Origin: the human T2T-CHM13v2.0 reference genome, Homo sapiens
Assembly (NCBI GenBank): GCA_009914755.4
Contig: CP068257.2
Coordinates: 31,936,001 to 32,000,000, forward strand
DNA: 64,000 bases
Direction: 5' to 3'
Made by a program: the position numbers and the translations under genes. Below the pieces are notes generated by a model. The model was given only the letters and a program-made list of their open reading frames with translations. It was not told the DNA's origin and searched no databases. This document shows positions 27,292 through 27,741 of the stretch, one piece after another. Numbering within the stretch: position 1 is the first letter of the stretch; each line of letters begins with the position of its first letter.

Positions 27292-27741
27292 CTGAAGATG
27301 ACAATCAAGGAAATTGCAAAAGCAAATCTCACCTAATGTGGAAAGCAGTTATCTTGATTCTGAATCACCTGAGACTCCTTTTCTCCATAATGAAATGGAA
27401 ATCCTCTTGCTACCTCTCTTTACCGAATCATAAGGCATATGTTTCAATCAAAATGTTAACAATCTGAATTTGCTACAAACTGACACCTAAACCTAATTTC
27501 TTCTCTAGTCAAAACACACCTATTCTCCCACAATCATAATTGAACGTTTTGATTAAAAAAGGTTTAATAGTTCACCATTTGTTGATACTTAGGGGCTTAT
27601 TTAGTATTACAATGGAGAATTAGTTTTAATATGACCTGAAGATAATTTAAGATTATAATCATATAAAACTGCCAATGTTAAACTTCTCACTAACGTCATT
27701 CAATGAAAATTAATTCTAGTTAACAACAACTGAAAGGATAC

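What the first reader, a model, noticed from the sequence alone, without database searches (positions are those of the whole stretch)
27292..27741. U12-type GT-AG intron in DONSON (between coding exons 7 and 8)
The donor after exon 7 is CT|GTATCCTTTC, an exact match to the U12 5'ss consensus /GTATCCTTT. By U2 standards it is a poor donor. The branch-site-like TCCTTGAT sits 12 nt upstream of the 3' AG (..tttccttgattgtcatcttcAG|G), the spacing typical of minor introns. The phase works out as CT+G = Leu, which continues [12 protein letters not shown].

Both DONSON and RNU4ATAC defects cause microcephalic primordial dwarfism. A minor intron in DONSON is therefore functionally interesting.
Basis: partly seen in the sequence, partly recalled or inferred. 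Interest (0 to 1): 0.5.

Follow-up and report, generated by a model that had tools for sequence, protein, structure and literature searches.

The report
Known U12-type intron in DONSON
The 450-base intron between DONSON exons 7 and 8 is a real minor-spliceosome (U12-type) intron, conserved from fish to human, but the public minor-intron catalogues already list it, so the finding is correct and not new.

Summary
On the minus strand, window 27741..27292 is a 450-nt intron. It starts CT|GTATCCTTTC and ends TTTCCTTGATTGTCATCTTCAG|G, and splicing restores ...[12 protein letters not shown]... of DONSON.

The U12-type reading is supported.
- The donor is the best U12-type 5' splice site among all 6,473 GT positions in the window, and it is a very poor U2 donor.
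- The branch adenosine lies 13 nt from the 3' splice site.
- The intron keeps the same position, phase and U12 signals in about ten vertebrate sequence types, from fish-like to mammal. One type has an AT-AG variant and one looks like a U12-to-U2 conversion.

It is already known.
- MIDB (Olthof 2019) lists chr21:33581501-33581950, DONSON, 450 nt, minus strand. The scores are 98.7 for the 5' splice site and 83.2 for the branch site, and the intron is conserved in mouse.
- Merico 2015 lists DONSON among minor-intron genes.
- Kwon 2023 labels its 3' splice site with U12DB as the source and finds it bound by ZRSR2 in CLIP-seq.

The proposed link to RNU4ATAC dwarfism is untested. The one patient dataset I could read (Roifman blood) shows no DONSON expression change and no measurable retention. 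Interest is low.

The parts
27742..27846 (-). DONSON coding exon 7 (105 nt; c.1047-c.1151 in the NM_017613 numbering used by Evrony 2017). It ends ...ATCAAGCT in phase 2.
   Evidence: Translation and splice. Match to Xenopus DONSON. Numbering anchored on the 109-nt intron 6 and c.1047-9A.
27733..27741 (-). U12-type 5' splice site GTATCCTTT, preceded by GCT (T at -1, not G).
   Evidence: Unique exact match in the window. Top U12 5'ss score of 6,473 GT sites, and U2 donor log-odds of -2.2. MIDB 5'SS score 98.7.
27292..27741 (-). DONSON intron 7: 450 nt, GT-AG, U12-type (minor) intron, 32% G+C.
   Evidence: Identical to the MIDB entry chr21:33581501-33581950.
27304..27311 (-). Branch-point sequence TCCTTGAT (MIDB 12-mer ATTTCCTTGATT). 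The presumed branch A is at 27305, 13 nt from the last intron base.
   Evidence: MIDB BPS score 83.2. A homologous motif lies 12-15 nt from the 3'ss in orthologues.
27292..27293 (-). 3' splice-site AG (…CATCTTCAG|G).
   Evidence: The 50-nt window around it overlaps a ZRSR2 CLIP-seq binding site (Kwon 2023 Table S4).
27093..27291 (-). DONSON coding exon 8 (199 nt, RKEKHEVQ...ATMQMLK), followed by a U2-type donor AAG|GTAATA.
27847..27955 (-). Context: DONSON intron 6 (109 nt, U2-type GTATGT...CCTAG), immediately upstream of exon 7. Position 27855 is the c.1047-9A site mutated in microcephaly-micromelia syndrome.

Best explanation
Window 27741..27292 (minus strand) is intron 7 of DONSON, a GT-AG intron of the U12 type that the minor spliceosome removes.

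From established knowledge of the pathway, splicing would proceed as follows.
1. U11 snRNP recognises the 5' splice site GTATCCTTT. U12 snRNA pairs with the branch site UUCCUUGAU and bulges the A that lies 13 nt from the 3' AG. The two act together as the U11/U12 di-snRNP.
2. ZRSR2 contacts the 3' splice site.
3. U4atac/U6atac.U5 then joins, and U6atac replaces U11 at the donor.

Correct removal joins CT|G into Leu384 and continues the reading frame. Retention would give ...[14 protein letters not shown] after 27 nt, predicting nonsense-mediated decay or a protein lacking its C-terminal third.

Shown: the sequence signals, the annotation, the conservation, and the ZRSR2 contact (published CLIP data). 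Inferred: the snRNA pairings, and actual dependence on U11, U12 and U4atac.
For: - Geometry and reading frame.
- Gene identity: (DONSON, E = 5e-47), with numbering.
- U12 signal strength: the donor scores 18.6 bits, the best of 6,473 GT sites in 64 kb on both strands and above all 44 catalogued GT-type training sites. The branch site scores 11.0 bits, rank 32 of 77 true sites. The U2 donor score is -2.2 bits against 12.5 for the consensus.
- Catalogues: MIDB Table S1 has identical coordinates. Table S2 gives status 'Both', scores 98.7 and 83.2, and a mouse orthologue with the same donor and branch site CTTTCCTTGACT. DONSON is in the Merico 2015 minor-intron gene list. Kwon 2023 labels the site with source U12DB.
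- Experiment: the 3' splice site is among the 440 of 840 predicted U12 sites that overlap ZRSR2 CLIP-seq binding sites. It is absent from the dual-type table (S7) and the -1G table (S8).
- Conservation: the position and phase are the same in all 8 orthologue types where exon 7 was found. Six of those keep GTATCC, and one has ATATCC. A TCCTTRAC-like branch site lies 12-15 nt from the 3'ss in 10 of 11 orthologue types.
Against: - I found no direct evidence that splicing of this particular intron fails when the minor spliceosome is impaired. In Roifman-syndrome (RNU4ATAC) blood RNA-seq, all DONSON minor-intron retention fields are NA, expression is unchanged (log2FC 0.10, p = 0.81), and the Cufflinks retention score is 0.
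- MIDB's table of retained minor introns (Table S5) does not list Donson.
- The human branch site is not optimal. It has G at the R position and T at the final Y, scoring 83 where mouse scores 91.
- One orthologue type (L004) has lost both U12 signals, so the U12 type is not indispensable for the gene.
Confidence: 0.95

Rival explanations
1. It is a dual-type or hybrid GT-AG intron that either spliceosome can remove, so minor-spliceosome loss would have little effect on DONSON.
For: - GT-AG termini are compatible with both spliceosomes.
- The last 20 nt before the AG are 75% pyrimidine.
- Kwon 2023 shows that a few catalogued GT-AG 'U12' introns are in fact U2-type or dual-type.
- One orthologue (L004) is U2-like at the same position, so conversion is possible.
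- No retention or expression change was detected in Roifman blood.
Against: - Kwon's misclassified or dual introns have AG|GT with G at -1, or weak branch sites. DONSON has CT|GT (T at -1) and is absent from their Tables S7 and S8, yet present in the ZRSR2-bound list.
- The U2 donor score is -2.2 bits, or -6.2 excluding the GT.
- Both U12 signals are retained across vertebrates, which is not expected if U2 splicing were sufficient.
- The Roifman result is NA for lack of coverage, not a measured zero.
Confidence: 0.04
2. It is an ordinary U2-type intron whose donor and branch region resemble the U12 consensus by chance.
For: GTATCCTTT is expected 0.82 times per window by chance, and TCCTTRAY occurs no more often than expected. 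GTAT donors are used by U2 introns, for example DONSON intron 6, GTATGT.
Against: - Joint placement of both motifs at the correct offsets of one verified intron has a chance of roughly 5e-9.
- Both motifs are conserved from fish-like to human sequences, while the rest of the intron varies from 99 to 834 nt.
- ZRSR2 binding sites overlap only 161 of 221,261 U2-type 3' splice sites but 440 of 840 predicted U12 sites, and DONSON is in the latter group.
- The donor is a very poor match to U1.
Confidence: 0.01

Closest known systems
The catalogued human DONSON minor intron: MIDB chr21:33581501-33581950, ENST00000303071; also labelled U12DB in Kwon 2023 and listed in Merico 2015.
   Same: It is the same object. 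The length (450 nt) and strand are identical. The 12-mer 5' splice site GCTGTATCCTTT and the 12-mer branch site ATTTCCTTGATT are identical. The coordinates coincide under a single offset (window 1 = chr21:33,554,210 in hg38), which also places Evrony's c.1047-9A correctly.
   Different: Nothing differs in the intron itself. Elsewhere the window departs from hg38 by 1-2 nt of indels (the CRYZL1 intron is 4524 nt against 4523), so it is probably another human assembly or haplotype.
Canonical GT-AG U12-type introns (consensus |RTATCCTT ... TCCTTRAY, 10-15 nt from the 3'ss), for example those of HTT, INSIG1 or UBL5 in MIDB Table S2.
   Same: The donor core GTATCCTTT is a perfect match. The branch site fits TCCTTRAY at 13 nt. 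There is no G at -1. The intron sits in a housekeeping, replication-related gene, and its position is conserved across vertebrates.
   Different: The human branch site uses the weaker G and T options. The consensus TCCTTAAC would score near 100, where this one scores 83.2.
The CRYZL1 AT-AC minor intron in the neighbouring gene, in the same window.
   Same: It is also catalogued in MIDB and U12DB, is also on the minus strand, and has the donor TTT|ATATCCTTT. It lies about 9 kb away.
   Different: It is the AT-AC subtype, is 4.5 kb long, and has alternative 3' splice sites 21 nt apart according to Kwon 2023 Table S4.

Membership tests
U12-type (minor-spliceosome) GT-AG intron | 5' splice site matches |RTATCCTT at the true exon-intron boundary and outscores the U2 donor model. 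| tested here: met
   CT|GTATCCTTT. My PWM gives 18.6 bits, rank 1 of 6,473 GT sites. The U2 donor score is -2.2 bits against 12.5 for the consensus. MIDB scores it 98.7, with thresholds.
U12-type (minor-spliceosome) GT-AG intron | Branch-point sequence TCCTTRAY close to the 3' splice site (optimum about 11-13 nt). | tested here: met
   TCCTTGAT at 27311..27304, with the branch A 13 nt from the 3' end. It scores 11.0 bits, rank 32 of 77 catalogued sites. MIDB BPS score is 83.2, above the 65 threshold.
U12-type (minor-spliceosome) GT-AG intron | Listed in curated or computed minor-intron catalogues. | tested here: met
   MIDB Tables S1 and S2. Merico 2015 minor-intron gene list. U12DB source label in Kwon 2023 Table S4.
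U12-type (minor-spliceosome) GT-AG intron | Physical contact with a minor-spliceosome-specific factor. | tested here: met
   This was a literature look-up, not my own experiment. The 3' splice site overlaps a ZRSR2 CLIP-seq binding site (Kwon 2023 Table S4).
U12-type (minor-spliceosome) GT-AG intron | Splicing depends on U11, U12, U4atac and U6atac, shown as retention when these are impaired. | tested here: inconclusive
   In Roifman (RNU4ATAC) blood RNA-seq the DONSON retention fields are NA, log2FC is 0.10 with p = 0.81, and the Cufflinks score is 0. Other datasets were not readable with the look-ups available.
U12-type (minor-spliceosome) GT-AG intron | Conservation of intron position and type in orthologues. 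This is typical of the family rather than strictly defining. | tested here: met
   The position and phase are the same in all 8 orthologue types where exon 7 was located. U12 donor signals are present in 7 of those 8 (six GTATCC, one ATATCC). A U12 branch site 12-15 nt from the 3'ss is present in 10 of 11 orthologue types. One exception, L004, is U2-like.
Dual-type or misclassified U2 GT-AG intron (Kwon 2023) | AG|GT donor with G at -1 allowing U1 pairing, U2AF1-only binding, or an alternative U2 donor using the same acceptor. | tested here: not met
   The donor has T at -1. DONSON is absent from Kwon Tables S7 and S8, since 'donson' occurs only in file 6, which is Table S4.

The most novel reading that the evidence does not exclude
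DONSON's single U12-type intron makes DONSON one of the dosage-sensitive effectors through which minor-spliceosome defects (RNU4ATAC in MOPD1/TALS, Rnu11 loss) cause microcephaly, dwarfism and micromelia. Retention gives a stop codon 27 nt into the intron.

A related point concerns exon 7, which is only 105 nt long and is defined by a U2-type acceptor upstream and a U12-type donor downstream. The known inefficiency of intron 6 splicing, and its sensitivity to the c.1047-9A>G disease mutation, might then stem from weak exon-bridging between the two spliceosomes.

I found neither idea discussed in the main text of any paper in the searchable library.
Probability: 0.12. Interest if true: 0.5.

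Novelty: already known. Interest (0 to 1): 0.12.

Why it matters
The feature itself adds nothing to existing annotation. DONSON intron 7 appears in MIDB, carries a U12DB source label in Kwon 2023 (which pooled U12DB, MIDB and IAOD), and has published ZRSR2 CLIP support.

The residual value is small. DONSON is an essential replication-initiation factor, and hypomorphic splicing mutations in it cause microcephalic dwarfism. It therefore belongs on the list of roughly 700 minor-intron genes that could contribute to RNU4ATAC and other minor-spliceosome disorders. I found no paper that has examined it specifically.

Many other replication and cell-cycle genes also carry U12 introns (PRIM1, for example, is in the same table), so DONSON is one candidate among many. 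The orthologue survey adds two minor evolutionary notes: an AT-AG subtype in one mammal and an apparent U12-to-U2 conversion in another vertebrate.

Tried and rejected
1. Motif rarity alone. GTATCCTTT (1 found, 0.82 expected) and TCCTTRAY (10 found, 13 expected) are not enriched in the window, so I did not use rarity as evidence and relied on positional and joint tests instead.
2. My first translation was in the wrong frame. I corrected it.
3. Main-text literature searches for DONSON with 'minor intron', 'U12', 'minor spliceosome', 'Rnu11', 'RNU4ATAC' and 'ZRSR2' found no paper that discusses a DONSON minor intron. The information exists only in supplementary tables.
4. Several papers had no supplements held as text: Olthof 2020, Cologne 2019 on TALS patients, Olthof 2024 and Niemela 2014. 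Baumgartner 2018 (Rnu11 knock-out) is not in the library. I therefore could not check retention in those datasets.
5. The homologue search returned only short ORF fragments from unidentified vertebrate contigs, not full-length annotated orthologues. Species names are unknown, and invertebrate or plant orthologues were not reached.
6. Contigs for P0008 did not extend to the donor, so I could not tell whether the AT-AG form is shared with that related species.
7. The sub-column labels of Olthof Table S6 were not preserved, so the mouse Donson flanking-intron values cannot be assigned to the upstream or downstream intron with certainty.
8. The U2 donor matrix I used is approximate and recalled from my own knowledge. 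It supports only the qualitative statement that this is a very poor U2 donor.

Full report
**What is in the sequence.** The gene lies on the minus strand. Reading the reverse complement of 27150-27900, the upstream exon ends ...CTTTCTATCAAGCT. The next bases are GTATCCTTTCAGTTG. Exactly 450 nt later the sequence reads ...GCAATTTCCTTGATTGTCATCTTCAG|GCGTAAAGAGAAACATGAAG.

Joining 27742 to 27291 gives an open frame...[60 protein letters not shown].... This peptide matches Xenopus DONSON (PDB 8q6o chain R, 'Protein downstream neighbor of son homolog') over 95 residues with E = 5e-47.

The geometry was verified.
- Intron 6: 27955..27847, 109 nt, GTATGT...CCTAG.
- Exon 7: 27846..27742, 105 nt.
- Intron 7: 27741..27292, 450 nt.
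- Branch motif TCCTTGAT: 27311..27304, with the branch A at 27305, 13 nt from the intron's last base.
- Exon 8: 27291..27093, 199 nt, followed by AAG|GTAATA.

Evrony et al. 2017 (PMC5538549) describe a 109-nt intron 6 with the disease variant c.1047-9A>G at hg38 chr21:33582064. The A nine bases before the CCTAG|GG acceptor is at window 27855. That fixes the upstream exon as exon 7 and gives the mapping window 1 = chr21:33,554,210.

**Is it more than chance?** The motifs on their own are not. GTATCCTTT occurs once in the window against 0.82 expected, and TCCTTRAY ten times against 13.1 expected. The significance lies in placement. The first motif sits exactly at the donor of a verified coding exon, and the second sits at the canonical distance from the acceptor that restores the frame. 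The joint chance is about 5e-9 per intron.

**Scoring.** I built position weight matrices from 77 catalogued human minor-intron sites, 44 of them GT-type, copied from Olthof 2019 Table S2 part 1. DONSON is not in that part.
- The DONSON donor scores 18.6 bits. That is higher than every training site and first among all 6,473 GT dinucleotides on both strands of the window. The next best scores 14.7.
- The branch site scores 11.0 bits, rank 32 of 77 true sites.
- An approximate U2 donor matrix, recalled from my own knowledge, gives -2.2 bits against 12.5 for CAG|GTAAGT.
- The donor has T rather than G at -1, so it lacks the AG|GT signature of the GT-AG 'U12' introns that Kwon et al. 2023 showed to be misclassified U2 introns.

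**It is already catalogued.**
- Olthof et al. 2019 (BMC Genomics, PMC6717393) Table S1, 'minor intron coordinates as reported on MIDB', contains 'chr21 33581501 33581950 ENST00000303071-DONSON 450 -'.
- Their Table S2 gives DONSON the MIG status 'Both'. The human 5'SS is GCTGTATCCTTT (score 98.73) and the BPS is ATTTCCTTGATT (83.22). The mouse 5'SS is GCTGTATCCTTT (96.94) and the BPS is CTTTCCTTGACT (90.98). The mouse intron is chr16:91682294-91682515, 222 nt.
- Their criteria are a U12 GT-AG 5'SS score above 50 and at least 25 points above the U2 score, or at least 10 points above with BPS over 65. This intron passes easily.
- Merico et al. 2015 (PMC4667643) include DONSON in Supplementary Data 4, 'minor intron genes'.
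- Kwon et al. [quoted passage not shown] Membership of Table S4 is therefore good evidence that the minor-spliceosome 3' splice-site factor contacts this intron. DONSON does not appear in their dual-type table (S7) or their -1G table (S8), since 'donson' occurs only in file 6.

**Conservation, tested independently here.** A protein search with the exon 7-8 peptide returned 47 short ORF fragments, mostly exon 8 called on genomic contigs of unidentified vertebrates. I fetched 18 loci and located exons 7 and 8 by tblastn.

The intron is at the same codon position (CT|..|N, phase 2) in every one of the 8 orthologue types where exon 7 was found. 'd' is the distance from the branch A to the last intron base.

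| Locus | Description | Intron length | Donor | Branch site |
|---|---|---|---|---|
| L005 | mouse-like | 222 nt | GCT\|GTATCCTTT | CTTTCCTTGACT, d13 (identical to MIDB's mouse strings) |
| L006 | unidentified vertebrate | 517 nt | ACT\|GTATCCTTT | TTTCCTTTGACT, d15 |
| L008 | unidentified vertebrate | 107 nt | ACT\|GTATCCTTT | TTTTCCTTAAGT, d12 |
| L018 | G+C-rich flanks; possibly avian, which is my guess | 343 nt | ACT\|GTATCCTTT | TTCCCTTGAC, d13 |
| L002 | unidentified vertebrate | 170 nt | ACT\|GTATCCTCC | AGGTCCTTGACC, d12 |
| L001 | fish-like, 50% identity | 99 nt | ACT\|GTATCCCCT | ACGTCCTTAACC, d13 |
| L007, L003, L014-L017 | 3' end only | not known | not on contig | TTCCTTGAG d13; ATCCTTAAC d14; TTTCCTTGAT d13 |

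There are two exceptions.
- In L009, L010, L011 and L013 (four separately assembled samples of one mammal, 94% identical in exon 7) the donor is GCT|ATATCCTTT. The branch site matches the human one and the intron ends in AG, so this is an AT-AG U12 variant.
- L004 (297 nt) has GCT|GTATGTTAA, no branch motif (best -3.6 bits) and the tract CTCTTTTTTGTAG. This is most simply read as a U12-to-U2 conversion in that lineage.

Intron length ranges from 99 to 834 nt while the two motifs persist. That is the pattern expected of a functional U12 intron.

**Mechanism.** By the established model of minor splicing, the U11/U12 di-snRNP recognises the GTATCCTTT donor and the UUCCUUGAU branch site together. 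ZRSR2 binds the 3' splice site. U4atac/U6atac.U5 then joins, and U6atac replaces U11 at the donor. This is inferred from family membership. Only the ZRSR2 contact has direct data. If the intron is retained, translation continues ...[10 protein letters not shown] and stops 27 nt into the intron, predicting nonsense-mediated decay or loss of the C-terminal third of the protein.

**The disease idea.** I found no paper in the library that discusses a DONSON minor intron in its main text. [quoted passage not shown]

In Roifman-syndrome blood (Merico 2015 Supplementary Data 4), DONSON shows DESeq log2FC 0.10 (p = 0.81), NA in every vast-tools minor-intron field, and a Cufflinks retention score of 0. 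It is also absent from the list of genes with retention detected by two or more methods. That result is uninformative rather than negative, because coverage was low and Roifman alleles are mild. With about 700 minor-intron genes, many of them involved in replication (PRIM1 is in the same table), DONSON is one candidate among many.

**A loose end worth recording.** Exon 7 is flanked by a U2-type acceptor and a U12-type donor. Evrony found intron 6 inefficiently spliced even in normal tissue (7% retention by RNA-seq, 24% by RT-PCR), and the pathogenic c.1047-9A>G lies in it. Olthof's Table S6, on retention of the major introns flanking minor introns, lists mouse Donson with values of 0.12-0.22. 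By my tab count these fall in Spleen and Thymus, but the sub-column labels were lost. This is compatible with weak exon-bridging between the two spliceosomes, but it is only a hint.

**Verdict.** The interest score is low. The only not-yet-explored angle is the functional contribution of this intron to minor-spliceosome disease, for which there is currently no positive evidence.

Noticed in passing
window 36997-41520 (minus strand): A second catalogued minor intron lies in the window, the AT-AC U12-type intron of the neighbouring gene CRYZL1. Its donor is TTT|ATATCCTTT at 41520 and it ends ...CCTTAACAATCCTTCCAGCTAC| at 36997. MIDB lists it as chr21:33591208-33595730, 4523 nt, while here it is 4524 nt. 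Kwon 2023 lists two CRYZL1 3' splice sites 21 nt apart.
   Followed up: partly
window 27741 versus 36997 and 41520: The window-to-hg38 offset is 33,554,209 at DONSON intron 7 but 33,554,211 and 33,554,210 at the two ends of the CRYZL1 intron. The window therefore differs from hg38 by small indels, suggesting another human assembly or haplotype, or a very close relative.
   Followed up: no
L009:2208-3041; also L010, L011, L013: In one unidentified mammal (exon 7 is 94% identical to human) the orthologous intron starts ATATCCTTT instead of GTATCCTTT but still ends in AG, with the same branch site. This is an AT-AG U12 subtype, and it recurs in four separately assembled metagenome samples.
   Followed up: partly
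L004:101-397: In one unidentified vertebrate the orthologous intron (297 nt, same position and phase) has a GTATGT donor, a CTCTTTTTTGTAG tract and no TCCTTRAC motif. This looks like a U12-to-U2 conversion. It rests on a single contig.
   Followed up: partly
L001:3159-3257: In a fish-like orthologue the U12 intron is only 99 nt long, is in frame and has no stop codon, so a gene caller read straight through it (P0013). Retention there would insert 33 residues rather than truncate the protein, unlike in human, where a stop follows after 27 nt.
   Followed up: no
protein hits P0002, P0035 and P0047 (not in the window): These are spliced, partly degenerate DONSON-like ORFs. P0002 lies on a 196-Mb human contig and is named 'protein phosphatase 2 regulatory subunit B'' alpha isoform CRA_e' by its source. 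This looks like a processed DONSON pseudogene inside or near PPP2R3A.
   Followed up: no
window 27847-27955 (minus strand) and mouse Donson in Olthof 2019 Table S6: The U2-type intron 6 lies immediately upstream of the U12 intron. It is reported as inefficiently spliced in normal human tissue and carries the MMS mutation c.1047-9A>G (window 27855). The major introns flanking mouse Donson's minor intron also appear in a retention table, with values of 0.12-0.22. This may reflect exon-definition coupling across the 105-nt exon 7.
   Followed up: partly
window 9455-9463 (+), 19350-19358 (+), 46108-46116 (-), and GT site at 107 (-): There are further matches to the AT-type U12 donor core ATATCCTTT: four in the window against 1.19 expected, with 5 of 100 shuffles reaching four. 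A GT site at 107 (-) scores 14.7 bits on the U12 donor matrix. I did not check any of these against exon structure.
   Followed up: no
window 34001-36000: This is the only G+C-rich block in the window, at 0.54 against about 0.40 elsewhere. By position it is probably the CpG-island promoter region between DONSON and CRYZL1.
   Followed up: no
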